DNA from: Obrimoposthia wandeli
Lineage: Eukaryota
Direction: 5' to 3'
Assembly: GCA_977020255.1 (NCBI GenBank)
Contig: CDROCS010001417.1
Span: 310,001 to 374,000, forward strand
Length of the DNA stretch: 64,000 nt
Part shown: positions 17,477 through 63,454 of the stretch, piece after piece
Numbering within the stretch: the stretch's first letter is position 1
Layout of the letters: each line of letters begins with the position of its first letter
Translations under genes and position numbers: made by a program
The notes under the pieces: generated by a model
The model's input: only the letters and a program-made list of their open reading frames with translations
Databases searched by the model: none
What the model was told of the DNA's origin: nothing

Positions 17477-20400
17477 ATGGATTCTTTGGACGTCTACACG
17501 GATCGAATGCAGCACCTGAAAGGTAATTTGAAAAACTAGTAAAAATATTTCTTATTAGTAAATATGCCAAAATTAATTTAAAAAAAAATTCTGAATAAAA
17601 CAATATAAATAGAATTTTTAGTCAATTTTTTTGAAGTGTTATAAAATTATTATTTAATATTCTTCTTTTTTTCTAAAATTGGGTTTGTCAGATGGCTAAA
17701 ATAAAATTAAACTAAATGAAAACTATATTATAAAATATGATTCGATGAGAAGTAGGCCTATTGTTTCAATAAGAGTCGAATATATTTATTTTGAATGTTT
17801 GTTAGATACCGGTGCAAACCTTAATGTAATTGAAAGATTTTTATTAAGTGATGCACATAAACCACATTTATTGCTTTTCTAAGGGGATTATGAACAGAAT
17901 TTTTTCACTATAAAATGATGAGTTTTATCGAATGCAGACATGATATGGGGTTCTATTATTACGAGTGATGATCATTGTGTCTTATAATAGATGTCAAAAG
18001 GTATTTCAGAATTATTCTGAATAGAAGTAAAAATAATTTTATTTGCTTGATTCAAAAAGTATTTTCTGCTATCCAATTTTACACAAATGAATTAAAATTT
18101 TCGGTGTTATGAAAAAGTGAAATTTGACTTTTGAAGTAATGAAAATCGAAACGTTTACAAACTTTCAATGCTATGATTTTTGGTATAATTTAACTGACCA
18201 TTGCACACATTAGATTAAGGCAGTGGTGGGATTCAAGGGTTCGCACCGGTTCGCGCGAACCGGTTCCTAAAAATATAAAAGTTCGCAGAACCGCCTGAAC
18301 CGGTTCCTGGACTACCTTCTTCGACTGAAACGTAATCATCTGGATAAAAAATATATAATTTTTTAATTCGTTGATTGAACGCATTATTTATTCTTATTTA
18401 TTCTTATATTAATATTAATGGTAAAGTCAAAATTTCAAAACTATTATTAAAATTCAGCAAACATTTAACTACAATATATTAATATTTAAACATAAAAAAA
18501 TCCGAGCACAGATTTTTTCATGTATATATAATATGGTGAAATGAACCTTCTACATATAACAATGGTTCAACCGTTTAAGTAAAATTGATAAATATATTTT
18601 AATGATAAATTATATCGAGTGTTTTACATGTAATTTGTAATGGGATATTATAATATGATACACAGTGTATGTTTAGTAAACATCGTTAGCCCTGAATCAT
18701 GGGATATTGATGAAGTTGTTGTACCGTGGAAACAAGCTGAAGAAAAATTACCCGGATTCTATAAGCAGTTTCACCATAAAATATGCGTTAACGATTTCCG
18801 TGACTATGTAGAAAATGTTATAGAAAACCGTCCCAATCAAGATGTTCCTTCTACAATACAAAAAGCAAAAAATATTATTAATACAATTGCTTTGAGTTCT
18901 GCTGAAGCGGAACGCGGATTTTCAGTTATGAATGTGATATATAGCGATAAAAGGAATCGTCTTGAAGTTCAAAATGTCGCAAATCTTATGGTAATAAAGT
19001 TAATTGGTCTTCCTCTTAATTTATGGGATTCTATGGATTCTGTTAAAACGTGGCTAAGAAAACACCACACAGCTGATGATAAAAGAGTGAAGCATTCATC
19101 TAATAGTTCTTATAATTCTAATGGATTATCAATCTGGAAATATTTGGAATATGATGGTAAATAAAATGATTAATTGAACTTGTTTATTATTAACCACACA
19201 CGGAAAAATTGATTTAATTCCACATCAACCGGTAAATGAGCGAACCGGTTGCTAAACAGTTTGAATCCCACCACTGGATTAAGGCATATCTGAATTAGAC
19301 AAATCTTAATAAATTATGACAGAATATTATTAATTAATATTATATTTTCTAACTTTGAATTTGCTTAACCTTCTTGAAACTGTACGTTCAACAATTGAGC
19401 AATTCTGAAATGTCATTGGGCACTTTATCTGTTAACTTTTCGTTTGGGTTTTTCAATTTTTTTCCCCTTTAAATTTTTTCTGGTACTTAATGCGACATTG
19501 TTCCAGTTGTCTGGTACGTGTTGTACAACGAATGTTATATCAATTCTCTTCATAGATGTTATGGTTTCTGTACAGGAGTCATTAGCCAAAAGCATAGCTT
19601 CGCCAATCCATTTTCTTTACTACCGCTTGGTGTTCTCAATGGCGCCCTGGCCCAGAGTGAATGAGTGAGGTAACATTTATGAAAGAAAGTATACAGATAT
19701 GAATCTAACTTATGTTGTTAATTGCGACTCCACCGAATGTGGCTAGATGGCCTTTGGAATTGACCAATATTCGAGAGCTTCGCCTTCATGACAGGTCAAA
19801 CTGTTTGTGAAGCCAAGACTTGTATACAGTCATATTATCCAAATAGGCTTCTGACAGTTGTAACAGATTGGAAACTGACGTAAATCCTGTAGATGAAAAA
19901 CATCGATGTTTTGCACTTTTCTAAATCAAATGTATGGGTACATTTATAGATTTTAAAGCGTTTGCGCACAAGTTAAATGGTAGACACTTCATCGCAATGC
20001 TGATGCTAGCCTTTAATTCCAATCTTTATTTTCTTCAAATTAAAAACTTTTTATATTTATGTCTGTCAGCTGAATAAAAATGAATATGGGCTGTATTATT
20101 ATATTTCCCAACTATGAATTTACTCAACATCGTTGAGACTCAACATAATGTAGCGTATACTGTATGGTTTTTTTTTAAACAATTAAGTTATTTTAGACAA
20201 TGGAAACTAGGGAAATCACAACATTTAGAATATTGGAACACTGATAAAAGGTTTCGTTCGAAATATATTTCGCAATTATTTGAAATAATACAATGATAAA
20301 AAAATTTAAGACGACTGATCAGATGAGTTGAAAAAATATGGGAAGCAATAAGAGAAGACAATATAAGAATCTTTACTAAATTTCCAATTAGAAGGAATTT

Positions 20401-23400: not shown

Positions 23401-26400
23401 TCGTTGGTGGATTCTATGCCTTGTAATGTTTACGCTGACCTCAGATAAGTGAGGCAGTGCGAATTAATACATGACCTTTGACCTACATTTTAAGTGGCAA
23501 CTGAACAGGAAAATTGAGAGTTGTAAACATTCTGAACCATTCTGTGTTCAGCGGTTTATAGCTGCTGATTTATTCTAGTGACACGTTACCAAACCATTTC
23601 AATACAATGTAGTATGTGATTTGGAAAGTATTGTAACCGTCTGGACACTTTTATCCGTTATATGCCTTGAGTAATATTTGATACAAATCCGTTACTGACA
23701 ATTAAAAGTACATTATCCCCATTTATAAATTCTGATCAGTTATCTGGAGATTACGAACCGTGATAGTTCAAGGATAGAATGCTACGACTTTTATGAGAAC
23801 TCCCATTTAATTCTCAGTCTCGGCAACTAACTTTCTCTTGAATCAAACTCATACAGTGCACTTTTAAGAATTTATTGTAATTTCAGTCCAGAATTTAATT
23901 TACTACGTAACATAAAACTACATTATTTAACCCATTTGATGCCATACTTCGTTTAAACGAATAATGCATTTCTTTGAGCAACTGATACTTTTTCCTATTG
24001 TTAAAATTAAAATACTTCGATTAAGCAATATTATAGCGCTTTATTTTCATTCTTTAGGTATTTTAAAGATAAGTGAACGAATAAAATATATTTAAAACAA
24101 ATTTATGCTGATCTATGGATCAAGCAAGAAGATCATTATAAGAAAAAAAATTTAATTACAAGTCAGTTGATTACATAAAAATAGTTAGAAAATTATTTCT
24201 TATGAAAACTTGTCAAATTTTCACAATTTTCTATTTCGTCAATATTCATTTAAAATACAGCTAAATCCCGTTAAATACCGTGAAAACTTTCTACTACATA
24301 TGATTTTAAAGGGTTTTTGAGGAACCACGGGTCATAAAAATTACTTGTTAATAAAGAATCACAATCGACTAGACATCACAAAGCTGCTTCACCATACAAT
24401 GTTAGAACCGATCTTCAAGGTACTACTAAGCGTCGCTGAGCACAACAATTACACTCATAAAATGTGTCTTTCAATGTGTCTTATCAATTTTCATCAAGTA
24501 TAAGTAGGTGGATGTGTCCGGTCTAATCCACATCCCCCCTTGTCCTTTAAGACCGTGCATGTGTGTGGAGTGAAATTTCGTGTAGGTTTGTGGAGTGAAA
24601 TTTCACTCCACACACATGCACGGTTTTAAAGGACAAAGGGGGGGCCCTAACATTTTTTCGCGCCTCACGGCGCGAAGGGCTCGGGACTGATATAGGTCAC
24701 AGACTAGCTTGGCGATGTGCAGATGTCTGGCTCTCATATATGTCACAGACTAGCTTGGCGATGTGCAGATGTCTCGCTCTCATATATGTCACAGACTAGC
24801 TTGGCGATGTGCGGATGTATCGCTCTCATATATGTCACAGACTAGCTTGGGCGATGTGCGGATGTCTCGCTCTCATATATGTCACAGACTAGCTTGGCGA
24901 TGTGCAGATGTCTCGCTCTCATATATGTCACAGACTAGCTTGGGCGATGTGTGGATGTCTCGCTCTCATATATGTCACAGACTAGCTTGGGCGATGTGTG
25001 GATGTCTCGCTCTCATATATGTCAAAGACTAGCTTGGCGATGTGCGGATGTCTGGCTCTCATATATGTCACAGACTAGCTTGGCGATGTGCGGATGTATC
25101 GCTCTCATATATGTCACAGACTAGCTTGGGCGATGTGCGGATGTCTCGCTCTCATATATGTCACAGACTAGCTTGGCGATGTGCGGATGTCTCGCTCTCA
25201 TATATGTCACAGACTAGCTTGGCGATGTGCAGATGTCTCGCTCTCATATATGTCACAGACTAGCTTGGGCGATGTGTGGATGTCTCGCTCTCATATATGT
25301 CACAGACTAGCTTGGGCGATGTGTGGATGTCTCGCTCTCATATATGTCACAGACTAGCTTGGGCGATGTGTGGATGTCTCGCTCTCATATATGTCACAGA
25401 CTAGTTTGGGTGATGGGCGGATGTCTCGCTCTCATATATGTCACAGACTAGCTTGGGTGATGTGCGAATGTCTCGCTCTCATATATGTCACAGACTAGTT
25501 TGGGTGATGGGCGGATGTTTCACCACACCACACCACACCACACCACACCACACCACACCACACCACACCACACCACACCACACCACAAACAACAACACCA
25601 CCACCGCCCGCCCCTTAGGGGCGGGCTCCATTCTCGCGAAAATAACTACAAAAACATGCGCTACAGTATCACTTTACCTCTCACAACTACACATGTCGAC
25701 AACCCGTGTCATACCCAAGACCCTAACATACATCGCACACCGCCCGCCCTTGGAGGCGGCCTTCATTCTTGATCTTTAGGCACGAAAACATTACAAAATA
25801 TAAATTATTTAAATAAGACGCCATTTTTTTTGTGCCAAATTTAAAATTTTCAAAATGGCTTTTAAACAAAAAAATTTAAAAATTAAAATAAAATTGTTTA
25901 CAAAATTTTTATAGTTTAAAAATAAAATTTCCAACATAATTTTTTACAACAATTTTTATAGTTTAAAAAAATAATTTTACACAGAACTTTTATACTTTAG
26001 AATTAAAATTTTAAACTTAGAAAAAGACGAATTGGATACAAATATTTATTAAACCAAAGAGAAAATTAGGTACATTAAATTTGTGACATACAAATTCAAA
26101 CATACAAAAAAAATTATTCAAGTGAAAAATCATCTGGATATCTATGATGTCTGTAGACAACTGACCGGTTTTTCTCTACCCATTTTCTCTCATCGTCATT
26201 GCTACTCAATGCGATCTTACTCATATTTACGGTATAGAGCTGGTGATTAATTGAACTAATGCGTTGTTGTTGTTACACTCGTTTACTAACCCCACTATCA
26301 TATGCAGCTAAATAATTCGCATGGCGTAGCACAGTCTGCTTAAGGCTAATTCCCTTTGCTCTCATCTAGAACTTTCCGTCTATAGTTTCTAAGCTATATG

Positions 26401-29400
26401 ATTTGGAGCGTAAAAATACCCATTGCTTATATCTACATTGCTTACTCTCATCCTTAAACTTGCCTATCGCAGTATTGGCTAAAGGATGGTTTATAGAAAA
26501 TTTTGATGTGTCTAATAATCCATCTGAAATCATTGCAGACAACAGTGTAGCTTGCACGTCTACATTATGACACTTTAGAAAAAAATTCTAATTTGGATAT
26601 AAAAAGTTCGATTTTTAATCATTTTATGTTTATATTTATGGATTTTAGAATACATTTTATCGTGTATATTTCAGAATAATGTAAATTAAGATGCAAAGTT
26701 GAATTTTATATCATTTATAAGGATTTTAGTTGACAAATGAATTTACTGTGTAATTTTTCTGAATAATGTAAATTTCGAATTAGAAAGTTCGATTTTCAGT
26801 CAATTTATAGATTAGAAGATACATTTACCAAGGATTTTTAGAATAATGCAAATTATAATGCAATTAATTGATCATTTTTCAATGAATTTACCCATATTTC
26901 TATAAATTTTCTTTGATTTTAGTTTAAGGACAAAATTACTTTCAGAACAAATAAGTTGTATTTACTGACGATTCTTATGTGCCAGCGCGTCAATAAAGTT
27001 TTCATGGTTTCTTATATGGTAGATGCACTAATTGGATTTATTTTCAACATATTTAAAGGATTCCTCCGTGTAATAAAGATATAATTTGAAGAGAGTATAT
27101 AATGATCAATAAGTGAGAGTTTATTACGGACAATTATACGGATAATTAGAGAGATTACTTTGATCAATTAGTCAATTTATGATCAAGAGTATATTATTAA
27201 TCTGCATCTTTAACTAAGAATTTTATTAAATTTCAAAATGATTCATTAAATCTAAAATGTTCTCTACTTTCTTTTAAAAACGTTTTTTTGTAAAAGAATC
27301 TGTAAAAGTTTTGTTAATAAAAAATGATTAGTTTCAAAGAATATTGTTTGAAGATTAGCTTATTTAAGGAAATTAATCTATGTAATAAATAATTAATTAA
27401 ATTATCACTAGTAAACATCGGATATCAATACTATATTGGAACATTTCGTTTAGAAATTATTACATCAGGACTAGAAATGGATTAAATTATATTCTCTCTT
27501 TCGATTCATTTAAACCTAAAATTATTTTCAAGTATCATTTATTGATATAATTTATTCAATAATGTTTAGAGTATGTATTTATCTCAGTCATAATTTATTC
27601 ATATTACTTGAGTCTATTGATAACTATATTCTCAAAACATAATTTTTCATTGATCGATATATCAAACAAGAAAATTCTTGCAAAACTCTACAAGCTTATT
27701 GATTCATTGGTGTTATCAATATTTTGGAAACTTATTTTCAAACATCAACAACTAGTCGATTTATTACTTCAAATAAATCGGTTTAGTAAAGAAATTATAC
27801 ATAAAAGGTTCTATAAGAGAAATTAAGAAGATGCATGAGATTTGTTACATTTAGATGAGATATGACATGGGTGTTTATAAGGTTTAAGAATAGAAAATAA
27901 TGGATAGAGTTTTAGAAGAGAAACTCACGATTTGTTCAAAAGGTTCTCTAGAAGAGTAATTAATACATAGAAGATTAAAGATAAGTAGCGGTTCAGAGGA
28001 GAAATTAACGATACTTTTAGGAGGTATCAAAAATATAGCCTAGATTGGATTATGAAGTGAAATTGATGTGATTTATTTAAGAGATTTAGGAATGGAATTT
28101 AGGAAGTTTATAAAATAATTTATTACATATAAGAGGAAATTTACGAGGTATTTAGAAGGTTATAGAAGAAATATTAATGCATAGAATGGTTATAAAAGAC
28201 AAATTGAAAAAGTGTTTAAGAGGTTTCAGAAGATATATTATAGATTTGAAGTGTTTAGAAAAGATTTAGCAGGAATGTTTAGGAGGTATCAAAAAATATA
28301 GCCTTAAAAGGCGTTTAGAGAAGTATTTAAAAGGAGTATTTAGGAAGTTTCAGAAAAAAGAAATTAAAACCTAAAATTGGTTCATAGGGGAAATTAAAGG
28401 GTTCCAAAGAGAATTTAACCGAGGAGTTCAGAAGAGAAAATATAACCTTAAAGGAGATATATATATATCAATAGGTATTAAGGAAAACTTAAAGAAACAA
28501 CTTCTGAGTATTGATAAAGTCATCATATTTTTATAAAAAATCGGGTGAAATCTTTATGATTACTATTAATAGTTTTGGTTCATATAAATGGATTCTATCT
28601 TCATTAGACATTAAAAATACTTTTAATCAATTAATATTAAGACATTGAATGAAAATTAACGATTTCATTAATACATAGTAAATAAGTTATTTTCAAAGAG
28701 AGTTTTATCGAAGTCATCAATATTATCGTTCCAAAGCCAATATTTAAGCATTTCATCTATTCCTTCTACATTCCTTCAATTAAAATCAAAGCTAGGTATG
28801 ATATTTTTTTAAAGATAATGTTTGAAGTATTTTATTGAAATTTAGATGCAATAATGAAGAATAGTGTTAAAGAATTGACATTAGGATGAATTAGAGGTTA
28901 TATCTGAAAGGGATAATCTAGAATTGATTGATATAAAGAAAATTAGGGTTGATAATAGAGGTTTATGAGAAGGAAAGTTATTGAGAATTATAGGAAAATT
29001 TATAATTATGTTCTAATGTTGGACTTGTGATGAGGAAATTATACCCGGATTGTTATATATGAGAAGAGATAGTAATTAAAACGTATGCAATATTCAAGAA
29101 TATAAATGATTAATTACTATTTATATATGTTTCAAAAGGAAGATATTGAAAATTTCTAAGAGTATTAGTGAGAATGAATCAAATAGTTACAGAGACATAT
29201 CTATCCATTACTTATCAATTTCATCCATCGTTTCAAATTCATGGATCATCTGATTCAATCAATAACTTTAAACATAACATAGAAATCTCTGGAAGATGCT
29301 TCGTGATCATAAATAGTCTTAACCCAAGATCTCAAAGAAAGTTATACCGAAATTATATAGATTTAACTAATATCCAAAGACTACATCCAAAGTCAATACT

Positions 29401-32400
29401 CAAGCATCTTATCTACATTCATTTCATCAGCCAGCCTTGAATCATCATTGATATGATATTTATAATGTAGCATTTCATGAAGCAATGCAAAGTAGAAGAA
29501 GATATTACGAAGTATTTAGGAGATTTCAGAAGAGAAAATATACCCTAAATAAATTGAGGAATTAATCAGATATTGTGATGTATGACGGAATATTAAGAAA
29601 GTTTTAGAAGCGAGATGGGTTATTTTCTCTTCAAGCAACTCTAAAAGGACTGCATAATGCATACAAATCATCACGATAATAACATGTATTGCATGACGAA
29701 ATCTTTACATAACCTCATATATTATTGATTATTTTCAAAGTTAGTTATACTGAAATGATCAATAATGTATGTATTGTATCAATATTATGCACAAACCTGA
29801 TGAAAATACCTCATGTCAAAGAATCTTATATCAAATTTACAATCATAACAGGTATTTAAGATGATTTTATATCACATGTAATTGATAATTTTCTTAAGAA
29901 ACTGATACCAAAGTAATAATATTGCATATAATTCTTCAATATTATAACAGTTATCGTAAGCTTTAAAGTTCTATATAAAACCTTGAAAGACATATGGTGA
30001 TTATTGAAAGTTGTACTTAAATTATCAATATTTTACTATTATTTCAATATAGTAAGTCATATTCAAGTTTTTCATATTTTTCTTCTACTCATCAAATTGT
30101 ACACAGTCATTAAATACTTCAATTAAATCACCATTAAGGTTAAGTGTGAAGTAATAATAAGTAGAATAATTACGGTATATTTAAGAGCTTTAAGAAAATA
30201 AAGTGAACCATATTGATTATTTTCTCAAGAAACTTATACTACGTCAATATCATGATCAGATAATCAATTATGATTTTATATAATCTTTAAGAGAATGCTT
30301 ACTACTACATCAGTTTCTATATGGACTAAACGATAAAATCAAAAATCACCCAGCACTACTAGAAGTAAAAAATTTTCAACAAGCCATAAATGAAGAACAA
30401 CTTGTAGAAGTAGTGAGAAGTGATGACTTATTTTGTATAATTGATTCTACTTTTATTTGTGAGTAGAAAACGTTTTTGTAATCTTAAGCTATTTATCACA
30501 CATTTTTAAACCTATGAGTTAAACAAGTAAATAGAGATAGCAAAGAATAATTTTTATTAAAGATACATACATTGTTACACCATCATCTCTTCACAATATC
30601 ATAATCTTCATTACTTCGATCCATCTTCATTATCACAATCCTTCTTCTCATCAAAGCAATCACTCATCTTCAACCTTCATTATCACAATCTCTATTCATT
30701 CATCTTCATTATCGTGATTAATTAAAATAATCAATACATTTTTAAATATACATTTTAAAATATGTAGAGAAATATATATTATGTACTGATTTATACATGT
30801 TCAGAGATGGAATTTAACAAGGTGTTTACAGAGGAGAATTCTTCGAGAAAAGTTATTTAGTGATATTATTCAATTGTTTATTCTTTGAAGTCCGATTCAA
30901 ATTGATTGATAATGTTGTTTATGTAAATCGCTTCGTATTAGTCATATCCTTGAAGGGCTCACGTTCTTCGGTTACACGCGTGGGTCTTGTTATTGTTTCA
31001 GTTACTGGATTAATATTTTCTCTATGATTATTTCTATTATAATCCATATTAGCATATAAATTACTACCAGAACCAATATATGTGCTTGCTCTATCTTGAT
31101 TATCCATTTTCAATAAAAATCAATATCGGAATATTGTTTATAGAGATAATTTGTAATCTAAAAATAGATTTTCAAATAATATATAAGAATTAGTTTATAA
31201 TAATCAGTTTATAATAACCAGAAATGTTACTTCATAATATCAAATTTGTGAATATTAATTACAAGGGAATGGTTGTAAGCAATATTCAACACTTTAGTAG
31301 TAGGTGGAAGGATGGAGTCTAGACCACTTGACCCCCCCCCCTAAAGGGTGTCACACCATAAGGATGTCTCGCCACACCATAAGGGTATATGTTGGGTCAC
31401 CGGAGGTGAGGCAACATATACCCTTATGGTGTGGCGAGACATCCTTATGGTGTGACACCCTTTAGGGGGGGGGGGTCAAGTGGTCTAGACTCCATCCTTC
31501 CACCTACTTTTACCATTTCGAAGCCACATCAGTACCGACACAAGTGTGATAGTTATACTATCTGGTACAAATCTGGTAATATATTTTACATTTAAGTTTT
31601 AATATAATTTTGGAACATGTCGAATCATGGGGTGTAAAGCTGTGCTATATGAAAGCACTCTTCCGTTCAATATCAAAATCGAGAGAATTCAATCAATCAG
31701 TGTCAGTACTTAGTACTTAGAAAAACCAATAAACCTGAGTAAGATGAGTAAGAGTATGAGAATGGAAGCAGTTTACGAACCAGAAATTTTTCCAGGGCTA
31801 CGTTATATCAAATACAATCCTCTATGCGTGAACATTTTTGCGAGCGGGAAGGGCGATGATACTTGGCGTTAAGACCCTAGAATATGAATATCTTGTTGAA
31901 TGTATTTTATTTAATAAACATCTTCAAACTTGTGTTCTTTCCTAAACAAAGACATTACTTGCAAAAAGATGCAAAGTTGCAAAAGTTGTAATGTTACTAA
32001 AAATATATTTTCCCTTGTTTTCTGAATTATAAACAATACTCTTATAGCTTTAAATTTGTCAATAAAATAGAGAAACTCGGTGAACCATCATCAGCAGAGA
32101 AAAATGAAGAAATTATTGAAGATACTGATAAAGAAGAAAATAAGCGATTGGATTTCTTAAATGCTCTGATTTTTATAGAACTCGTAATAGCTAATGCTTC
32201 CAGTATGGAAATGTCTCATATGTCCCACCTTTTTTGATAGTTTGTTTAGAGCTAGATTTAACCAACTTAGTGTGGAAAAATTAAACAAAACCCCAATGAG
32301 CGAGATTTTAGTAAATCCATTATATATTGAAAATTATCGTGACGGGTTTGATGAAACTGAGATTCTAAAATTGAAATTCACACATGTAATCAATACATCT

Positions 32401-35400
32401 CCAGTGGATAAGATATCTTATAATGAATTAAAGTAAAAATCAATCTATGTAAATACGAAATTAGGAGAAACAGACTAATAATATAATTAAATAAACCATC
32501 AAAAATGGTGGGAAAGTTCTAGTATGTGGTCATTATGGAGGTTTACATGCTGTTTGTATTGTTATTGCATTTTTATCTCTTACAATGAGTGTTAAAACTG
32601 TCGGGAATCTTGCTAAAGTTAAACATAGTATTGCTACACCTAATGCAACTTTGCTTAATCAAATACGTATTTTTAATCATTATCATACAAAAATTGTATT
32701 TCTTATGATTCTCATATCATCTAATCAGATTTTAGTTGTATAGTATATAAACAGTTTACTTTTCAGTCCTACTTCATTATCATGTCTACTCGCAATTATT
32801 TCAAGCAAGATGTTGATCGGGCGGTGAAGAGTTTCATCTCGAAATATCTTATAGAAGAAAATGTTCTGAGACTCATCGAAGCAACGGATCTACCTCTGGA
32901 GGAGCATGTACGAAGAATAATTCACAATAAGGCAGTCAATCTTCTCATTCTGGGCTATAATAAGAAGAAAGAAGAGATGAAAGAAAAGAAGAGGAGCTTT
33001 TTCTGGGAGAAGAGTTTTTTATTGTTTGTTGGTGGATATATTTTAATTAAATATTTTAAGTAACTTTGTCTTATAAACACTATCTTAATACTAATATTTT
33101 TAATATAGACTTAAAGAATAATTATGCATGGAATCTTGCCGTGCTTAATACAACTTTGCTTAATCAAATACGTATTTTTAATCATTATCATACATAAATT
33201 GTATTTATCATGTTTCTACCATTATCCAATCAGATTTTAGTTGTATATAAACAGTCAACGTTTTGACCATACGTCATTATAATCTCTACTCATAATTATA
33301 TCAAACAACATGTTGATTATATATGTCAAACAAACCAGGTATAATTCATAAATTTCCTCACATATATCAATCAATTTTAGATTATCCCTTTCAGATATAA
33401 CCTTGAAGATGAGTGATTGCTTTGATGAGAAGAAGGATTGTGATAATGAAGATGGATCGAAGTAATGAAGATTATGATATTGTGAAGAGATGATGGTGTA
33501 ACAATGTATGTATCTTTAATAAAAATTATTCTTTGCTATCTCTATTTACTTGTTTAACTCATAGGTTTAAAAATGTGTGATAAATAGCTTAAGATTACAA
33601 AAACGTTTTCTACTCACAAATAAAAGTAGAATCAATTATACAAAATAAGTCATCACTTCTCACTACTTCTACAAGTTGTTCTTCATTTATGGCTTGTTGA
33701 AAATTTTTTACTTCTAGTAGTGCTGGGTGATTTTTGATTTTATCGTTTAGTCCATATAGAAACTGATGTAGTAGTAAGCATTCTCTTAAAGATTATATAA
33801 AATCATAATTGATTATCTGATCATGATATTGACGTAGTATAAGTTTCTTGAGAAAATAATCAATATGGTTCACTTTATTTTCTTAAAGCTCTTAAATATA
33901 CCGTAATTATTCTACTTATTATTACTTCACACTTAACCTTAATGGGGATTTAATTGAAGTATTTAATGACTGTGTACAATTTGATGAGTAGAAGAAAAAT
34001 ATGAAAAACTTGAATATGACTTACTATATTGAAATAATAGTAAAATATTGATAATTTAAGTACAACTTTCAATAATCACCATATGTCTTTCAAGGTTTTA
34101 TATAGAACTTTAAAGCTTACGATAACTGTTATAATATTGAAGAATTATATGCAATATTATTACTTTGGTATCAGTTTCTTAAGAAAATTATCAATTACAT
34201 GTGATATAAAATCATCTTTAATACCTGTTATGATTGTAAATTTGATATAAGATTCTTTGACATGAGGTATTTTCATCAGGTTTGTGCATAATATTGATAC
34301 AATACATACATTATTGATCATTTCAGTATAACTAACTTTGAAAATAATCAATAATATATGAGGTTATGTAAAGATTTCGTCATGCAATACATGTTATTAT
34401 CGTGATGATTTGTATGCATTATGCAGTCCTTTTAGATTAAATTCCGTCAGATATTTCAATTTATTTATGAAATCTCCTAAATACTTCGTAAGCATTGCTT
34501 CATGAAATGCTACATTATAAATATCATATCAATGATGATTCCTGGCTGATGAAATGAATGTAGATAAGATGCTTGATATTGACTTTGGATAGTCTTTGGA
34601 ATTAGTTAAATCTATATAATTTCGGTATAACTTCTTTGAGATCTTGGGTTAAGACTATTTATGATCACGAAGCATTTCCAGAGATTTCTATGTTATGTTT
34701 AAAATTGATTGATGATGATTTAATCATGGATAAATTGATAAGTAATGGATAGATATGTCTCAACTATTTGATTCATTCTCACTAATACTCTTAGTTTTCA
34801 ATATTTTCCTTTTGAAACATTATCATTTATATTCTTGTATTGCATACCTATCTCTTCTCATATATAACAATCCGGGTATAATGACTTATAAGTAGCTCTA
34901 ATTCATCCTACAACATATTTTTCATTATTGATTATTTCAATCTTCAACATTATCTTTAAAATATCAACCTAGCTTTGATTTTAATTGGGAATAGAAGGAA
35001 TGCTTAAATATTGGCTTTGGAACATAATATTGATGACTTCGATAAAACTCTCTTTGAAAATAACTTACTCGTTAATTTTCATTCTGTCTTAATATTAATT
35101 GATTAAAAGTATTTTAATGTCTAATGAAGATAGAATCCATAAACCAAAACTCTAACTTCTAAAACTCTAATTCTAACACTAACATCATTTTCCAAAAATA
35201 TATATGCGAAAAATTTACAAGAAGATGGTAAAAGTTTGAATAATATCTCTGCTTTTGTAAAAATTGTCTTCGTTATGGCCGAAATATGAGTAAAATACTT
35301 ATGATTAATTTTTGGTATAACTCGCTTTGAAGCAGTATAAAGCTGAAATTCAATATGATCGCTTATATCATAATCTTAAATGAAATGACCGTAATTTTGA

Positions 35401-38400
35401 TAAAATACGATTTCACTACAGTTTTAGAACAGTAGACTTATTTCCCTTCTAAACCACCTAAATATCTTCTAACTCACATTAAATTTCCTTTCAAAGTCAA
35501 ATATATCCTATATTTTTTCTTCTGAATCCTACTAACCTTATATACATCGCTTTTATTTTCATTCAATCTAGCTATCTAGGCTATATTTACCAAAACCTCC
35601 TAAACATTCCTGCTAAATCTTTTCTAAACACTCCAAATCTATAATATATCTTCTGAAACCTCTTGAACACTTTTTCAATTTGTCTTTTATAACCATTCTA
35701 TGCATTAATATTTCTTCTATAACCTTCTAAATACCTCGTAAATTTCCTCTTATATGTAATAAATTATTTTATAAACTTCCTAAATTCCATTCCTAAATCT
35801 CTTAAATAAATCACATCAATTTCACTTCATAATCCAATCTAGGCTATATTTTTGATACCTCCTAAAAGTATCGTTAATTTCTCCTCTGAACCGCTACTTA
35901 TCTTTAATCTTCTATGTATTAATTACTCTTCTAGAGAACCTTTTGAACAAATCGTGAGTTTCTCTTCTAAAACTCTATCCATTATTTTCTATTCTTAAAC
36001 CTTATAAACACCCATGTCATATCTCATCTAAATGTAACAAATCTCATGCATCTTCTTAATTTCTCTTATAGAACCTTTTATGTATAATTTCTTTACTAAA
36101 CCGATTTATTTGAAGTAATAAATCGACTAGTTGTTGATGTTTGAAAATAAGTTTCCAAAATATTGATAACACCAATGAATCAATAAGCTTGTAGAGTTTT
36201 GCAAGAATTTTCTTGTTTGATATATCGATCAATGAAAAATTATGTTTTGAGAATATAGTTATCAATAGACTCAAGTAATATGAATAAATTATGACTGAGA
36301 TAAATACATACTCTAAACATTATTGAATAAATTATATCAATAAATGATACTTGAAAATAATTTTAGGTTTAAATGAATCGAAAGAGAGAATATAATTTAA
36401 TCCATTTCTAGTCCTGATGTAATAATTTCTAAACGAAATGTTCCAATATAGTATTGATATCCGATGTTTACTAGTGATAATTTAATTAATTATTTATTAC
36501 ATAGATTAATTTCCTTAAATAAGCTAATCTTCAAACAATATTCTTTGAAACTAATCATTTTTTATTAACAAAACTTTTACAGATTCTTTTACAAAAAACT
36601 TTTTTAAAAGAAAGTAGAGAACATTTTAGATTTAATGAATCATTTTGAAATTTAATAAAATTCTTAGTTAAAGATGCAGATTAATAATATACTCTTGATC
36701 GTAAATTGACTAATTGATCAAAGTAATCTCTCTAATTATCCGTATAATTGTCCGTAATAAACTCTCACTTATTGATCATTATATACTCTCTTCAAATTAT
36801 ATCTTTATTACACGGAGGAATCCTTTAAATATGTTGAAGAGAAATCCAATTAGTGCATCTACCATATAAGAAACCATGAAAATTTTATTGACGCGCTGGC
36901 ACATAAGAATCGTCAGTAAATACAACTTATTTGTTCTGAAAGTAATTTTGTCCTTAAACTAAAATCAAAGAAAATTTATAGAAATATGGGTAAATTCATT
37001 GAAAAATGATCAATTAATTGCATTATAATTTGCATTATTCTAAAAATCCTTGGTAAATGTATCTTCTAATCTATAAATTGACTGAAAATCGAACTTTCTA
37101 ATTCGAAATTTACATTATTCAGAAAAATTACACAGTAAATTCATTTGTCAACTAAAATCCTTATAAATGATATAAAATTCAACTTTGCATCTTAATTTAC
37201 ATTATTCTGAAATATACACGATAAAATGTATTCTAAAATCCATAAATATAAACATAAAATGATTAAAAATCGAACTTTTTATATCCAAATTAGAATTTTT
37301 ATTCTAAAGTGTCATAATGTAGACGTGCAAGCTACACTGTTGTCTGCAATGATTTCAGATGGATTATTAGACACATACAAATTTTCTATAAACCATCCTT
37401 TAGCCAATACTGCGATAGGCAAGTTTAAGGATGAGAGTAAGCAATGTAGATATAAGCAATGGGTATTTTTACGCTCCAAATCATATAGCTTAGAAACTAT
37501 AGACGGAAAGTTCTAGATGAGAGCAAAGGGAATTAGCCTTAAGCAGACTGTGCTACGCCATGCGAATTATTTAGCTGCATATGATAGTGGGGTTAGTGAA
37601 CGAGTGCAACAACAACGCATTAGTTCAATTAATCACCAGCTCTATACCGTAAATATGAGTAAGATCGCATTGAGTAGCAATGACGATGAGAGAAAATGGG
37701 TAGAGAAAAACCGGTCAGTTGTCTACAGACATCATAGATATCCAGATGATTTTTCACTTGAATAATTTTTTTTGTATGTTTGAATTTGTATGTCACAAAT
37801 TTAATGTACCTAATTTTCTCTTTAGTTTAATAAATATTTGTATCCAATTCGTCTTTTTCTAAGTTTAAAATTTTAATTCTAAAGTATAAAAGTTCTGTGT
37901 AAAATTTTAATTCTAAAGTATAAAAGTTCTGTGTAAAATTATTTTTTTAAACTATAAAAATTGTTGTAAAAAATTATGTTGGAAATTTTATTTTTAAACT
38001 ATAAAAATTTTGTAAACAATTTTATTTTAATTTTTAAATTTTTTTTGTTTAAAAGCCATTTTGAAAATTTTAAATTTGGCACAAAAAAATGGCGTCTTAT
38101 TTAAATAATTTATTTTTTGTAATGTTTTCGTGCCTAAAGATCAAGAATGAAGGCCGCCTCCAAGGGCGGGCGGTGTGCGGTGTATGTTAGGGTCTTGGGT
38201 ATTACACGGGTTGTCGACATGTGTAGTTGTGAGAGGTAAAGTGATACTGTAGCGCATGTTTTTGTAGTTATTTTCGCGAGAATGGAGCCCGCCCCTAAGG
38301 GGCGGGCGGTGGGTGGAGTGTTTCGGTGGTGTTGTTGTTTGTGGTGTGGTGTGGTGTGGTGTGGTGTGGTGTGGTGTGGTGTGGTGTGGTGTGGTGTGGT

Positions 38401-41400
38401 GTGGTGTGGTGTGGTGTGGTGTGGTGTGGTGTGGTGGTAGTTAGTGATATACACGAGAGCGAGACATTCGCACATCACCCAAGCTGGTCTGTGACATATA
38501 TGAGAGCGAGACATCCGCACATCGCCAAGCTAGTCTGTGACATATATGAGAGCGAGACATCCGCACATCGCCAAGCTAGTCTGTGACATATATGAGAGCG
38601 ATACATCCGCACATCGCCAAGCTAGTCTGTGACATATATGAGAGCGAGACATCCGCACATCGCCAAGCTAGTCTGTGACCTATATCAGTCCCGAGCCCTT
38701 CGCGCTAAAAGGCGCGAAAAATTTTGAGGGGGTAGGACCCCTCCCTTGTCCTTTAAAACCGTGCATGTGTGTGGAGTGAATTTTTACTCCACACACCTAC
38801 ACGAAATTTCACTCCTCACACATGCACGGTTTTAAAGGACAAGGGTGAGGGGGTGTGGATTAGACCGGACACATCCACCTACTAGTATACTTTAATTTTA
38901 ATCTAAACTGATTTAGAAGGCTGGATGAAAAAGTTATGAAGCACAGGTTTACATGATGTTTCAATCGCTTTATTTCGGTTACTTAGCTAGTGAAGACCTG
39001 ATAACTTACAATAACATAATTGAGATTAATTGAATATGTTTGAAGACAAACTTATTCCTACATATCTTATTTATTCAAAATGCTCGTCGCCATCTTCAAA
39101 TATTATTTCATTTACTAATCAAAAGTGTCACATACAATTTACCGATTGTCCAACTAAACACCAACACGTATCAAACAAGACAGTAAAATGTATTTATAAT
39201 CATTTGTAGTCTGATTGGCCAATTTTGATTTTCAAATTATTATAATTCAGCAGACTATTATTTATCAGCAGTACTTTTGAACGTTTTATTTTGAAAAGTA
39301 GAGGATAGTTAGCTTATACATTTCTTTTCAGAAAGTCACAAGCAGGTGCAAATTAAAACATTCGGAAATTGGATCAACGGTCAATTTGCTAAGGTAACAA
39401 AGTGTGTTATTTGAATAGGACAACTGTTTTTATCAAAGTTTGAATACATAAGTGAGAAATATCACCTCTATATTATTATTTTAGTATTTTTTAGCATTTA
39501 AAAAAATTATTTTGCATCTCTCCTACTTAAAGCATGTTGTGTGCAGAGATGTGGCGATATAAGATTGGAAAATGAATGGCAATTTATTGAGTAAAACAAA
39601 AACGAAGCATACTAATAATTAATTTAACACTGAGAATTAGTGAACTGCCGAAAGAAAAGAAAGTTCCACCAGCAGACATATCTCGAGGAGATAGTGCACT
39701 TTGTTTTGAGATCAGTTTGGCATTTGCCGAGTAATTAGAAGAAACAGTAATCCATACCATTTTTACAGTAAACCATTCCTAACTTTTGTCAGTTTCAATT
39801 CAAATATTCGATAAATATTTTTGTTTCCTAGTAAACAACATTGAATAAAATATAGTTTCATTGAATATGTAGTTGCATTTAGTTCTAGAACTATCTAATC
39901 AATCTCTATTCAGAGTATATCAACCGTGTGAGCTAATGAAGAAAATACTATTTCCTAGTACAGTTAGATGCAAAATTTTGAGGCGCATTGCATAATTTAT
40001 TATATAAGGAGTTAAAATTTCTGTATAGAAAAATTCGTTAAATATTTCATGTATTTATAAAGAAAAGTTAATTCTGAAATGTAAGTTCATATATTTTAAT
40101 TTTATCTCGAATTTTTATCAACTCATCTGCATTACGTTTAAAAGTTATTAGTTAAATTTAATTTTTAATAATATTTAAGTGAAAGAATAATGTAGATAAC
40201 TTTGGAAGCTATTTTAAATATGCGATATATTTCAAAATTGCGATATATTTCAAAATTGCTTTATAAAGTATTATATATTACGATATAATGTGTATGAATA
40301 ATTTTAATAACATTTTATTCAATATATTTCATTTAATAATAAATTCACTAGAGAAGAAATATCACAAAAAATTATTCAAATATAACTAATATTAACAAGA
40401 AAATAAATCCAACTGGGCACCTCTGAATATTAAAATCACTAAATATAAATAAGGGTAAATATTTTTAAGATATCATTTTATCATTCATAACTAAATACAT
40501 GTAAAAACTGAAACTTTGAACTAAAAGTTCAGGTTAATTTTGTTTCAATGCTCTTAAATAGTCAAATTTTCAAAGAAAACATCTTTAGAAAATTTTATTT
40601 CTCATAAATATGTATATAAGTTATATTAATGAAAATGTTTAACTAATTTTTTATATCAAAAAGTAAAGTTAATAATTATAATGTATTTTCGATTCATTTG
40701 ATGTTCAATCTCAACATTGCATTTAACCTAAATACATTTTGAAAATAACTTAAATAAGCATATACTTCAAAAGATTTCAAACTTAAAAGAAAATCATTTT
40801 AGTTTGTAGTAAAAGTTAATTTAATATTTATTAGTCCATAAAGTAAAATAAATTAATTAACTTTTATCATATGTTTATGAATAAATACAGGCAATATTTA
40901 AAATTTGTATTAACGACAATATTTTATATTTGAATTCATATCAACCTATTTATGCAATTTCATAAGGTTCAAACAAATAATGCACAATATAATGAAAATT
41001 GTAGATTAATAATTTTAATACTGATGACAACTATAGAGAAATTCATATATAAAATGATAAAAATTATTTGAATATAAAGAAAATTTGTCATTTTGAGTCA
41101 AAAATGTTTCCTTGTGAGAATTAAAAGACAATAAAATGCTCATAGAAGTTATTTCCTTTCATAAGAAAATGTTCATTAGATATTTTAAAGAACCGATAAT
41201 AAATTATTATTACTATTTTATACATATATTTATAAGTAATATTATACTTATTTTACAAACCATTTGAAGTAAAAATGTAATGAATAAACAACTGTACCTT
41301 TGATTTGTTTAACTTATGTTTTATAATAACTACCTAAAATGCCACATAACAACGTGTTATATTTTATACTACACATGGTATATATTTTATTCAGGCTAAA

Positions 41401-44400: not shown

Positions 44401-47400
44401 CTTCACAACTGCTGAAGAGGCATTTGATATTCCAAAAATCCTGGATCCTACAGGTAATTGTATAAATAATTTTTTAAATGTCATATTACTAACTATTTTA
44501 CGTAGTCTATTATTATTATTTTTCATTTTTCACTTTATCCTTGTAAATTGACTTAGATGTCGACGTTCCTGATCCAGATGAGAAATCAATAATGACATAC
44601 GCATCACAGCTGCTCAAATATCGTGCTTCAGCCCCAGCGTCAAAGAAAACGGACGAGAAAGGTTCAGACGTCCCCAATCCGGATTCTACGAAACAACTCG
44701 ACCAAGAAATTATTCCCAAAGTAGACTATTTAACTCATTTCTGCAAATGACTCTAACTCAGGGATGGCGCACCTGTTTTGCGCCATGGATCGCATGGTTT
44801 GCATAAAACATGCACCTATGCATTCCTAAATACAAATATTTATGACTTCAAAAATACTAAGAACCGTTTTAGTGTCTTCTCTGTGGAAGACTCGATGTAG
44901 CAATGAGCTGATTGTTCGAGTCTGTAATCTTTATGCATTGACTAGATTTCACTGCTTAACTCGAGAAAAACGTTGTTCACTTATGTAGGTAGTGCATACG
45001 AAGACAGCAATATCTGGGAACCCTTCTTGGGATAAAATATGTATGTCACTGACCTTGTCCATTGGCAAGTAGTCCGGTAGTATTGTAACATCCCCATTTA
45101 ACGGTGGTGTGAAAAGTTGAAATAGACAATTCCGGATATGGAAATCCTGAAATTCCATACCAAATTCCTGTAACAAGCAGTACAGAACTTCACAAATGTG
45201 CACAGTTATAATTTTGCAGCTGATGGTCCCATAAGTGAGGTTTCGTAGAAAAAACTTTCAAATGATCACATGTGAGATGATTGACTTCTCTATCAGTCTA
45301 TTAGTATGCGCGGCTTATATTCGCTTTCCTCGCTGAATGCTTACTCACAAGGGAAGGCTTCAAACTTGAACACTCAAAATTGAATGAAATATAGCTCATA
45401 TTTACATATTGGTAAAACAAATATATATTCATTCGAGTTTTTTTCGTGTGAGTTCAAAAACAAGTCCGTATATTTACAAAAGAGATGCTAAAGTGTTTGA
45501 TTTGTAAGTTATGAAAAATCCAATATTGGGAGAAAAATAAAATAATCTTATTATAAAATATATCTAAAATATGAACTTCTTAGTTTTAAATTTTATTTAA
45601 ATAGCAACTATTAAAAAATATTTGAAAACATAAATGTCAGAATTTAAAATTTCTAAATATATTTAAAATAAATAAGATTTTCTAAATAATATGGAAAATT
45701 TAATGTAATATTCTTTACACATTTTCTATTTATTATTTTAATTTGCTAATTTAATTAATAGTTAGGCACTTTAATTATTTATTCATATTATATTATATTT
45801 TTCGAATTTAATCATTAGTGAAAGCATAAATAAAATTATTATTTTACAGCATAAATTTAAAACTTTAATAGATCGTATAAAATGAACAAAATCATTTAAA
45901 AAATTGATTTTAAATCAACTATTTGTGTAGAAAGAAAATTTTCACAATATTTGTTATTCACATATTATATTTATTGTTAGGTCTGTATAATAATTAAAAT
46001 TATATTCAACACCAAAATCTTCCGTCCTATTTCTGTGGTCTCTTTTAAGTAAAGCGCGCTGTTCGCAAATGCAGGTAGTTGTGCAATAATATGAAGACAA
46101 TTAGTTACACAATCATACAGGTACAAACATTCAATTAACTAGTTTATTGTGAGATTATAATTATTTACCAAACATTTATTAAATTAATATATGATAAAAT
46201 TAATTAAATGTTTTTCGAAAATATTGAGAGTTTTATTAACTTACAATTGATATATATTTGTTATTTTCGTATATCCATTTTAATCTGTTAATTCGAAGCT
46301 TCTATAATGTAATTTCTTTGTGATTTTATATGGTCCTTCATATCTCATATCTTGTTTATTTCTAACGTCAGTTTTTACCAAAACATTATCATCTATTTCA
46401 AAATTTCTGAAATTGCTTTTTACTTTCATGAGATCTTTCCAATTTTCATTACTATCACTGCTGACTGTGAATAAAAATTATTTAATTTTTTCAAAAGCAA
46501 TTTTAACAGGATTCTAGTTAATTGATGATTGCATTGTAGAGTTCAATGTATATTCAATATTCGGTAGCGCTTCTTCCCAAATTCTGTAAAGCTAATCTTC
46601 TAAACAACATGCAATCCAGTCGCTAATAGTTCTAAATTGACGTTCTACTTGACCATTGGTTTGGTGATGATATGGACTTGAATAATTGATTGTAAAATTA
46701 CTTTTCTTCGCAAGGTCTAACAATAATTTGAATTCAAAACACTTTCCTCTATCTACGTTAATTTTCTTCGGAGCACCAAACTTCAATATCCATTTATCTA
46801 CTAATATATTTATAACAATATTTTAAAATTGAATTCGAACTGACTCTAATACAACATATTTAGAAAATTGATCTATTATAGCCAAAATATTTTTCCATTG
46901 ACTGTAGTCTTAAATGGGCCACAAAAATCTACATATAAACTTTCATATGGCTCATTGGCAGATAATGTTATAACTTTTTCTTTAGTACGTCCTGTATAAG
47001 TCTTTCTTTTCTGACAAATCATACATGATTTAACTATACTTGTCATATTTTCCAAATCTCTCATATAAAAGCTATTTTCAATCTGACTTAATACTTTTTT
47101 CAGCCAGCATGATATAAATCTTTGTGCAATTGACCAACAAAAGCTGACCTCTCTTCTAAAGGGATGTAATTTTTTTTACTACGATAGATAATACCAGAAT
47201 TAATGCTGAACTCACAGTTTTCATTATTGTCAATCTGTTTTCTTATATTAAATATATATTTTAAAACTTTTGTAATTCGTGAATTTTTGATTCTCCTGAT
47301 ATAGATAATATTAAAATATAATCTAAATATTCTAAAGCTTCAGTCCAAATCGTATTTTTTAAGATAATTGTCATTAATTTTTGAAATGTTGAAGGAGCAT

Positions 47401-61234: not shown

Positions 61235-63454
61235 TTGGATCTTTATATTTATTGATACATTACAATAGCGTTGCCATAACAGGGCATGGAATACATGAAT
61301 CCCAGTTTGAAAATAGGCGTCTCTAACAATACATCAATCAATTCCTGGAACACAGGACGAGCTATCAAATATTAAATTTACACATTTATCCTTTGTTTCG
61401 CTTTTATTAATTTGAATGTTAACATAATTTATTAAGCTTTATCGGAATATTTTTATAACAATAAAATAAAAATACAAATATCTCGTAAATGCTATCTTTT
61501 GAAATTTCACAATTGTAATACATGTATGCTGAAAATTTCTTTAAAAATCAAATAAATTTAAAAAAGTTACTTAATGTCAAAATTTATTGTTTTTTTTAAT
61601 CATATATAATTTTAAGCATTTTTATACATATCTCAGTTATTGTTTGACAAATTACACTATGTGTGATCGTCCTAAAAAGAAAACTTTTCTCAAACTTTAG
61701 CGAAATTAAATCACTAACTTCAGTCTCAATTAAAAGTATATTTGTAATATTTTGAATTACTCAATATATTTTTAAATTTATTTTTGTCTTTCTTAAGGTC
61801 AGTCATCTTTTAGATAAGCTCATTTGCAGCAAGGCACATTTAATATATAATCTTTACCCAGGAAATGCCTGTTAATCTCATTTTTTTAAAAATACGTCGT
61901 CTTGAGTGTTTACAGAAGAAAATCGGATAGGGAAGCGATAGTTATACTTTTTCTTTTTAAAGTTATTTTTAGTCAAAATTTTACAGGAAGAGATATATTT
62001 TCAAACATTATTTATATTTGATTTTTTTATATTTAATTATACTAAATACATTTAAGAATATCTTTATTCAAATATTTTTTGAAAGTTTAATATGAATTAT
62101 TTAATGTATTAATTAAAGTTTTATTTTCAAATTGAACAAATTTTGGGAGCCGGTAAAATAAAACATTTCAAGATAAAACTTTATTTTTTTACATAAAATC
62201 GATCCATCGATAACATTCAAAGACTTTTTTTATTAGATAATTACATGCTTACTTTTATTATTCAGCATGTGATTATCTACATATTTTTACATTCTGCATT
62301 TACAGCTTATGTTAGACATAATTCCGTTCTAAAACAGTTTCAAATATGAAAAATGCATACATTTTTTTCAGAATTTCCACAGCATCACATTTTAAAGATT
62401 TTCTAACACTTTGAGGCCCAAAGTATATTGAATGTCCTATAAGATCATCAGAATTAATTTTATTCCTGAATATATTTAAATTTCTTTCTAATGCATTTTG
62501 AAAATGGAAATCTAAAAAAAATTACAGAGTTCAAAAGAAAATAGTGGATTCTGTTATAGAATTTATAGAATTAATATTATAAAAAAAATCGATTTAATAG
62601 TTTCATATTAATTAAATATATTAATAACAAGAAGTTCTGTGTATAAAACATAAAATAAATAGTTATTTTTATATTAGTATAAAATGTTTTGTCCACAATA
62701 AAAATAAAACTGAGTAATATGCTAAACTCATTAATGTTGACATTGTCGAATTTATGGATATAAGTTAAAATTTTTCTTATAATACTTAAGGACGGACGTG
62801 AACAAAATAATATCGTACATCGTACAAAAAATACATTTCTAGAAAGTTGGCAATAGAATTTTCATAAAATCACTTTCCAATCACTTTTTAGTATTTTTTT
62901 ATATGATGTTGAAGGTTATGTGCTTTAAATTAATTAAAGCTATCTCTCATGTCAATTGATGCTTTAAGCGTAAAAACTTGAATACTTTTCTAATTTGTAA
63001 CACTTTATTATACATTTGTCTAAACTTTAGCCAAAATTTAGAAACAAAATGCTTACTTTTAAAAACTCTCAAATAGAACAAATTTTACACATGTTACATT
63101 CCCTAATTTATCTTAGGTATAATTTTTTAATGTAAATCGATTATTTACATACTATTTATTAAATGCAGATAAAAAACTTTTTCTTAGAATACTCAAGAGA
63201 TTAAATTGAAGACTAAGTTACCAGTGAACCAATCATAACTAGAGTTTCAAAAAAAAATCAAATAATGTTCATTTCAAACAATAAAAAATTATGGTTTATA
63301 AAGACCAATTAAATACTTCACATTGATATTTTTATACAAAATACATTTGACGTAAGCATAAAAATATTAATATTAAAACTTATTCAAAATTGAAATTGTA
63401 AAAAAATATTTTCAAATTTTGCCATGTAGCCCGAGAGAATTAATATTAATTAAG

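What the first reader, a model, noticed from the sequence alone, without database searches (positions are those of the whole stretch)
24503..38883. Polinton-like element that is about 80% inverted repeat, with arms of 5.5-6.2 kb
Seen: exact AGTAGG...CCTACT termini, a perfect 6-bp TSD (AGTATA), 11.65 kb of 14.38 kb in two inverted arms, and polB remnants in both arms. I saw no integrase, ATPase, protease or capsid gene. Established: AG...CT ends, 6-bp TSDs and a protein-primed PolB define Polintons/Mavericks, whose TIRs are usually hundreds of bp to about 1-1.5 kb. Inference: this is a non-autonomous, panhandle-shaped derivative whose TIRs have grown to include former gene territory. It was still integrated cleanly in trans, so it may be an undescribed class of Polinton satellite.
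Basis: partly seen in the sequence, partly recalled or inferred. Interest (0 to 1): 0.88.

Follow-up and report, generated by a model that had tools for sequence, protein, structure and literature searches.

The report
Giant-armed hitchhiker of Polinton viruses
This 14-kb stretch is one of several hundred copies of a virus-like jumping element that carries only broken gene remnants between two mirror-image arms about 5 kb long and likely moves by borrowing the enzymes of an abundant complete relative; an unrelated family of the same shape is also present in the genome.

Summary
Real, and a family. Ends, TSD and arms are confirmed. In the 1.35-Gb host genome (likely a planarian) a core probe has 558 hits and an arm probe 1,542. 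Twelve of 13 copies with both ends and direct flanks have a perfect 6-bp TSD, each different, and three have empty paralogous sites. Typical copies are 12-15 kb and 65-78% inverted repeat; the window's 81% includes a private extension. The element is a chimera. Its outer 1.3 kb comes from Polinton family A1 (28,195 ends in the genome). The polB tail and TBP-like and phosphatase-like remnants come from a family-C-like Polinton, whose 1.2-kb TIR already holds that tail. No remnant shows selection. Inner arms are kept alike in patches (0.7% within copies, 2.5% between); the tips are not. Arm-extension junctions recur at several loci, so extended forms transposed. A second, unrelated family with B-type ends (about 10 kb, up to about 93% inverted repeat, 3,473 arm hits) shows the shape arose twice. 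Both run at 70-87% of their helper's length, hinting at packaging (untested). Verdict: new variant of non-autonomous Polinton. The scan had not noted it before.

The parts
24497..24502 (.). left target-site duplication AGTATA
24503..24690 (+). left tip, family-A1 type; holds a 110-bp hairpin (24534-24642)
   Evidence: fold -70.3 kcal/mol, z -14.5
24690..25587 (+). subterminal 46/47-bp array (17.8 copies) and CACCA array, shared with A1
25588..25818 (+). rest of the A1-derived end; sharp A1/C junction near 25818, the same in every arm shown
25825..26587 (-). family-C-type TIR piece: polB C-terminal tail (about 155 codons, broken) and its AT-rich 3' region, left arm
   Evidence: 82-87% DNA identity to family C
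26588..28935 (.). AT-rich inner left arm of unknown origin; lacks about 0.8 kb that sister copies carry in both arms
28936..30673 (.). core DNA of sister copies, mirrored into the right arm in this copy only (29640-30673 at 99.8%)
31222..31939 (+). broken TBP-like gene, 72% DNA identity to family C
31299..31508 (.). nested 210-bp snap-back hairpin of the family-B terminus, inserted in the TBP-like gene; absent from 10 of 10 copies scored
32144..32699 (+). broken dual-specificity-phosphatase-like gene, 67-68% DNA identity to family-C-type copies
32782..33063 (+). 93-codon ORF of unknown origin, open in 20 of 25 copies but without a significant selection signal
33403..34436 (.). private 1,034-bp arm extension (mirror of 29640-30673)
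34465..35140 (.). private deletion-rich mirror of 28588-29531; real error-prone copy or local sequence error
35141..37296 (.). AT-rich inner right arm
37297..38091 (+). family-C-type TIR piece with polB tail, right arm
38092..38883 (-). A1-derived right end with arrays (38340-38685) and tip
38884..38889 (.). right target-site duplication AGTATA

Best explanation
A multi-copy Polinton/Maverick derivative with only broken gene remnants, A1-type ends and 4-6 kb inverted arms, likely copied and integrated in trans by the polymerase and integrase of the abundant A1 Polinton. Shown: family status, 6-bp TSDs, empty sites, chimeric build, no selection on remnants, patchy likeness of arms, inherited arm-extension junctions. 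Inferred steps: (1) a family-C-like Polinton gave a one-ended derivative (TIR with polB tail, then TBP-like and phosphatase genes, nothing from the ATPase onward), as expected if synthesis ran in from one end and then switched to copy that end back; (2) one recombination replaced the outer 0.2-0.3 kb of the C-type end with 1.3 kb of A1 end, and arm-to-arm copying put it on both sides, handing the element to a larger helper pool; (3) A1 proteins amplified it to several hundred copies; (4) arm-to-arm repair copying keeps inner arms alike in tracts and sometimes runs on into the core at short inverted microhomologies, lengthening the arms, while the variable arrays shield the tips.
For: 558 core and 1,542 arm probe hits, reversed controls 0. 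12 of 13 both-ended copies with direct flanks have perfect, all different TSDs; 3 of 13 have empty paralogous sites with exactly 6 bp overlap. A-type ends number 28,195; A1 copies carry DNA_pol_B_2, rve+chromo, Pox_A32 and TBP; family tips are 3.7% from A1 tips, less than the 5.4% among themselves. Family C has 1.2-kb TIRs holding the polB tail, one with the same inner boundary as here, followed by the TBP-like gene. One A1/C junction in all arms shown. Omega 0.70-1.47, none significant, for 7 remnant segments. Inner arms: 0.66% within versus 2.48% between copies, patchy (X2 183, df 72, p 1e-11); nearest neighbour is the partner arm in 32 of 36; tips 5.4% within and between. Extension junctions recur at separate loci, one at 3 loci with 12-14 bp overlap. 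Terminus snap-back minis of 175-201 bp are 7 of 27 end pairs, so fold-back synthesis happens in this system.
Against: No intact A1 helper was shown: none of the A1-type copies among the 10 terminus-anchored loci had an unbroken polB frame. The direct C-like parent was not found: core remnants are only 67-74% identical to sampled C copies, and about 4.6 kb of arm and core has no source. Only 8 of 16 core-anchored copies keep an inverted block of 2.3 kb or more, and only 7 of 16 showed both ends in the fetched range. Two of 25 loci have mirrored flanks, so some long palindromes here may be misassembled. Arm likeness could be raised by consensus polishing. Copy-back in a free replicon and break repair in the chromosome give the same shape and were not told apart. 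Short derivatives with TSDs (5.9 and 7.2 kb) exist, so long arms are not needed to stay bounded.
Confidence: 0.72

Rival explanations
1. Packaged satellite: the arms are stuffer selected so that a defective, copy-back genome reaches a length that the helper's capsid will package, and the family spread between cells in helper virions.
For: Ten complete A-ended copies are 70-87% of a 17.4-kb A1 copy, and three B-ended copies are 76-85% of a 12.5-kb B copy. Human adenovirus genomes under 75% of wild-type length rearrange towards full size (PMC9863843, passage). The shape arose twice. Helpers carry a packaging-type ATPase.
Against: Two families only; helper lengths rest on few copies; most complete copies were picked by having both arms or the core, which biases length. 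A-ended elements of 175-201 bp, 0.8, 1.6, 3.2, 5.9 and 7.2 kb are integrated. Capsid ORFs were recognised by position and recall, not by a Pfam hit. No particle data.
Confidence: 0.2
2. Neutral by-product in the chromosome: an ordinary deletion derivative whose arms grew and are homogenised only by host double-strand-break repair after insertion, as proposed for Galileo; arm length is tolerated, not useful.
For: Patchy homogenisation and one-arm deletions or insertions; the private 99.8% extension in the window; the same model in PMC3573991 (passage).
Against: The main arm boundary is shared by most copies and extended forms recur at several loci, so long arms were present before and during amplification; two families ended near the same fraction of helper length.
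Confidence: 0.3
3. Assembly fold-back artefact.
For: Two loci with mirrored flanks; a deletion-rich private tract in the window; no read spanning the element was available.
Against: Different direct TSDs with non-mirrored flanks in 12 copies, empty sites, a 3-4 kb unique core, arms that differ by substitutions and large one-arm indels, shared junction classes.
Confidence: 0.03

Closest known systems
Polintons/Mavericks (Polinton-type PolB with Endonuclease VII domain)
   Same: AG...CT ends, 6-bp TSD, polB remnant, similar total length; full-gene relatives A1, B and C in the same genome. A Maverick expansion is reported in Dugesia genomes (10.64898/2025.12.11.693146, passages).
Butterfly polintons with gene-containing TIRs of about 2 kb (10.1101/2025.02.07.637071, passages)
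   Same: TIRs that duplicate coding DNA; polB-less polinton insertions also reported there.
   Different: Those TIRs hold hexon and adenain genes of gene-rich elements; here arms are 2-3 times longer, make up 65-93% of the element and the element is non-coding.
Galileo / Foldback elements with extended, recombinant TIRs (PMC3573991, passages)
   Same: Internal tandem arrays in TIRs, TIR growth by recruiting inner sequence, longest TIRs in non-autonomous copies, chimeric subfamilies.
   Different: P-element superfamily, 7-bp TSD, TIRs up to about 1.26 kb; here Polinton ends, 6-bp TSD and 4-6 kb arms.
Copy-back (panhandle) defective interfering genomes and helper-dependent adenovirus genomes
   Same: Both ends from one parental end, helper-supplied enzymes, length near 75-85% of helper (size rule from PMC9863843; copy-back genomes recalled, no call).
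   Different: Integrated and inherited in the host genome; packaging and interference untested.
Non-autonomous Polintons in Repbase (recalled, not checked)
   Same: Polinton ends without core genes.
   Different: I could not read the original description or Repbase, so their arm lengths were not compared.

Membership tests
Polinton/Maverick (autonomous) | TIRs with AG...CT ends | tested here: met
Polinton/Maverick (autonomous) | 6-bp TSD | tested here: met
   12 of 13 both-ended copies perfect, 1 with 5 of 6
Polinton/Maverick (autonomous) | complete protein-primed PolB | tested here: not met
   last 155 or so codons only, omega 1.34
Polinton/Maverick (autonomous) | retroviral-like integrase | tested here: not met
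   no tblastx match to A1, B or C integrase regions
Polinton/Maverick (autonomous) | packaging ATPase, protease, major and minor capsid genes | tested here: not met
   no tblastx match; no ORF of 110 aa or more in the element outside the arrays except the 112-aa frame holding the small ORF
Non-autonomous Polinton derivative | ends shared with a full-gene Polinton in the same genome | tested here: met
   A1 family
Non-autonomous Polinton derivative | amplified as a dispersed family after gene loss | tested here: met
Non-autonomous Polinton derivative | movement by helper proteins | not testable with these tools
   inferred from shared ends; no intact A1 copy shown
Foldback/Galileo | long TIRs with internal tandem repeats and variable inner boundary | tested here: met
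Foldback/Galileo | 7-bp TSD and P-element-type transposase | tested here: not met
   6-bp TSD; remnants are Polinton genes
Copy-back defective genome / viral satellite | both ends and all content from one end of the parent | tested here: inconclusive
   traceable content is all from the non-polB end of a C-like element, but 4.6 kb has no source and the outer ends are A1
Copy-back defective genome / viral satellite | packaged in helper particles | not testable with these tools
   length ratio only

The most novel reading that the evidence does not exclude
Giant-armed Polinton derivatives are integrated defective satellites: copy-back genomes whose arms serve as stuffer to reach the helper capsid's lower size limit, which switch helpers by swapping ends, arose at least twice in this genome and together hold about 2% of it. 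Their length would be a genomic footprint of virion-based spread of animal Polintons.
Probability: 0.2. Interest if true: 0.85.

Novelty: new variant of a known kind. Interest (0 to 1): 0.6.

Why it matters
Polinton surveys look for core genes and for TIRs under about 2.5 kb around a long loop (PMC11131425), so elements of this shape would be missed. Here two such families add up to roughly 0.6-0.8% and 1.3% of the genome by probe counts times typical length (rough). They give hundreds of natural replicates of a 4-6 kb inverted repeat for measuring arm-to-arm conversion and palindrome instability. They show end-swapping between Polinton families as a way to change helper. They offer an observational test of whether animal Polintons spread as virions: a lower length limit tied to helper length, and presence in protected particles.

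Tried and rejected
Candidate counts of the genome searches (2,244; 28,533; 43,893; 24,410) are loose first-look numbers and were not used as copy numbers. Family B was first taken as the possible parent and rejected: different terminus, polB tail only 41-57% identical in protein. A1 as source of the polB tail was rejected: 40-59% protein identity, no DNA match except a 51-bp patch. The tip row was confounded by the tip's own hairpin and replaced. A function for the 93-codon ORF: no Pfam hit, atlas scores under 0.8, omega 0.70 with p 0.12; not supported. Sequencing runs: four contig sets of one sample, no RNA holder listed. Two contigs run from unique flank 22 and 24 bases into the termini, under the tool's 31-base bar, and none spans the element: inconclusive, also for the deletion-rich tract. 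The contig look-up for the metagenome polB was closed. Four of 20 planned core-anchored copies were not fetched. The original Polinton paper and a Polinton review were not held. Earlier scan notes held nothing on this. Literature searches found no description of multi-kb-armed non-coding Polinton families; subscription papers, Repbase/Dfam and bioRxiv supplements (including the Dugesia repeat libraries) were not seen.
Full report
Observation. The element at 24503-38883 has AGTAGG...CCTACT ends and a perfect AGTATA duplication. Its arms span 6,171 and 5,481 bp (81%); 74% of bases lie in inverted alignments. Each end has a 110-bp hairpin, a 46/47-bp array and a CACCA array. Both arms carry the C-terminal tail of a Polinton-type PolB. 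The tract 34465-35140 is private and deletion-rich; I cannot tell error-prone copying from sequence error.

It is a family. The host genome is 1.35 Gb in 6,912 contigs. A Burro-like retroelement suggests a dugesiid planarian; this is inference. A 26-mer of the arm has 1,542 hits and one of the core 558, reversed controls 0. I examined 25 other loci: 9 picked because both arms were hit and 16 taken at every fifth place down the core-probe list (16 of 20 planned). With the window, 13 have both ends and direct flanks; 12 have a perfect 6-bp TSD, all different, and one has 5 of 6. Three sit in other repeats whose paralogues show the empty site with a 6-bp overlap, one of them a 14.2-kb copy inside an A1 Polinton. 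Against tidiness: of the 16 core-anchored loci only 7 showed both ends in range and 8 kept an inverted block of 2.3 kb or more; the others are truncated or have one-arm deletions. Two loci have mirrored flanks. Eight complete copies besides the window are 12.1-15.2 kb with 65-78% of their span in arms.

Where the parts come from. The genome holds at least three full-gene Polinton families. A1 shares the element's terminus (28,195 hits); a 17.4-kb copy with a TSD has DNA_pol_B_2, rve+chromo, Pox_A32 and TBP matches. B and C have other termini. The element's outer 1.3 kb matches A1 at 80-90%; the next 0.77 kb, with the polB tail, matches C at 82-87%; the TBP-like and phosphatase remnants match C-type copies at 67-74%. 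Family C's own TIR is about 1.2 kb and already duplicates the polB tail, in one copy with the same inner boundary as here, and the TBP-like gene follows at that end. The A1/C junction is the same in every arm shown, so it arose once. About 4.6 kb of AT-rich DNA has no source among my loci. All seven remnant segments tested evolve without a selection signal. No A1 copy with an unbroken polB frame was among the 10 terminus-anchored loci.

How the arms behave. In the inner arm, partners differ by 0.76% and arms of different copies by 2.5%; the partner is the nearest neighbour in 32 of 36 arms; 132 sample-private alleles are in both arms against 72 and 65 in one (which includes the two mirrored loci). 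Without those loci the figures are 0.66% and 2.48%, and differences are patchy along the arm (X2 183, df 72). True tips differ by 5.4% within and 5.4% between copies (13 copies). Shared private alleles alone could be inherited from unsampled parents; the patchiness is what points to tract-wise copying. Polishing could contribute and needs reads. Inner boundaries fall in classes (26 loci): 11 at one junction, 8 at or near a slightly shorter one, 3 at an extension with 12-14 bp of inverted microhomology, 1 at another extension that a second copy carries internally, the window's private one, and 2 unscored. Recurrence at separate loci shows that extended forms transposed.

Mechanism. I read it as a one-ended, copy-back-like derivative of a C-like Polinton that swapped in A1 ends and was amplified by A1 polymerase and integrase, with arm-to-arm repair keeping and extending the arms. 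The family, chimerism and arm statistics are shown; the founding switch, the helper and the timing of copying are inferred. Snap-back minis of 175-201 bp (7 of 27 end pairs) and a fold-back at the C406 end show that template switching at these ends occurs.

It happened twice. Nested in one copy is a 10,556-bp element with B-type ends, TSD TATAGA, 4.8-kb arms and a 0.7-kb core, with no coding match. Its inner-arm probe has 3,473 hits; 2 of 3 further loci have both ends and perfect TSDs, one of them with a partly deleted arm, and the third is rearranged. Ten complete A-ended copies are 70-87% of a 17.4-kb A1 copy and three B-ended ones 76-85% of a 12.5-kb B copy, close to the 75% floor of adenovirus (PMC9863843, passage). 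Sampling favoured long copies and short A-ended elements are integrated too, so I give the packaging reading 0.2.

Comparison. It fails the tests for an autonomous Polinton and meets those for a non-autonomous derivative. A Maverick expansion in Dugesia is reported without structure in the passages seen (supplements closed). PMC6431247 was read in passages; PMC5294982 added nothing. Eight searches found no account of multi-kb-armed non-coding Polinton families; Repbase and subscription papers were not searched, and non-autonomous Polintons there are recalled only. The family labels A1, B and C are mine.

Verdict. A real, amplified and recurrent architecture: a new variant of a known kind, interest 0.6, rising to 0.85 if the arms prove to be packaging stuffer.

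Noticed in passing
L038/L039 (G000:C1267:53896-64451); also L135-L140: Second giant-armed family: 10,556 bp, TSD TATAGA, about 4.8-kb arms, 0.7-kb core, B-type ends, no ORF of 110 aa and no tblastn match to Polinton ORFs. Inner-arm probe has 3,473 hits; 2 of 3 further loci have both ends and perfect TSDs (9,468 and 9,853 bp), with two terminus variants.
   Followed up: partly
G000; window 31299-31508: Terminus snap-back minis of 175-210 bp: 7 of 27 end pairs among the first 100 A-type hits, and a B-type one inside this element.
   Followed up: partly
L091-L092, L087-L088: Family C full-gene Polintons (13.7-13.9 kb) have 1.2-kb TIRs that duplicate the last 165 or so codons of polB, with a variable inner boundary.
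   Followed up: partly
L051, L091, L098: All three full-gene Polinton families carry a TBP-like gene (Pfam E 4e-11 to 6e-12); some C-type copies also carry a dual-specificity phosphatase. A search for polinton + TATA-binding protein gave 5 listings, none on animal Polintons by title or abstract start.
   Followed up: partly
G000: Family B is a very young, large Polinton expansion: 144 of 144 scored polB hits nearly alike, many in long open frames.
   Followed up: no
L025-L026 (C3067), L033-L035 (C4636): Mirror symmetry runs beyond an element's ends into the flanks (C3067: 11 substitutions, no gaps in 1,971 bp): real palindrome formation or haplotype walk-back in assembly.
   Followed up: partly
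L123-L124 (C406), right end: The terminus folds back on its hairpin and carries an internal copy of about 30 bp of its own flank, a template switch at or after insertion.
   Followed up: no
L060-L061, L052: Giant gypsy element with RING, BIR, fusion glycoprotein before the protease, and a phosphatase domain, fitting the planarian Burro description (PMC6431247); basis for the host inference.
   Followed up: partly
window 63451-64000: Family-B-type Polinton terminus and arrays at the window's end.
   Followed up: no
window 45975-46253 and 47841-48118; 18634-19164; 55513-57126: A 279-bp direct repeat pair (95%), a hAT transposase C-terminal remnant, and a 537-codon acidic open frame without Pfam match.
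   Followed up: no
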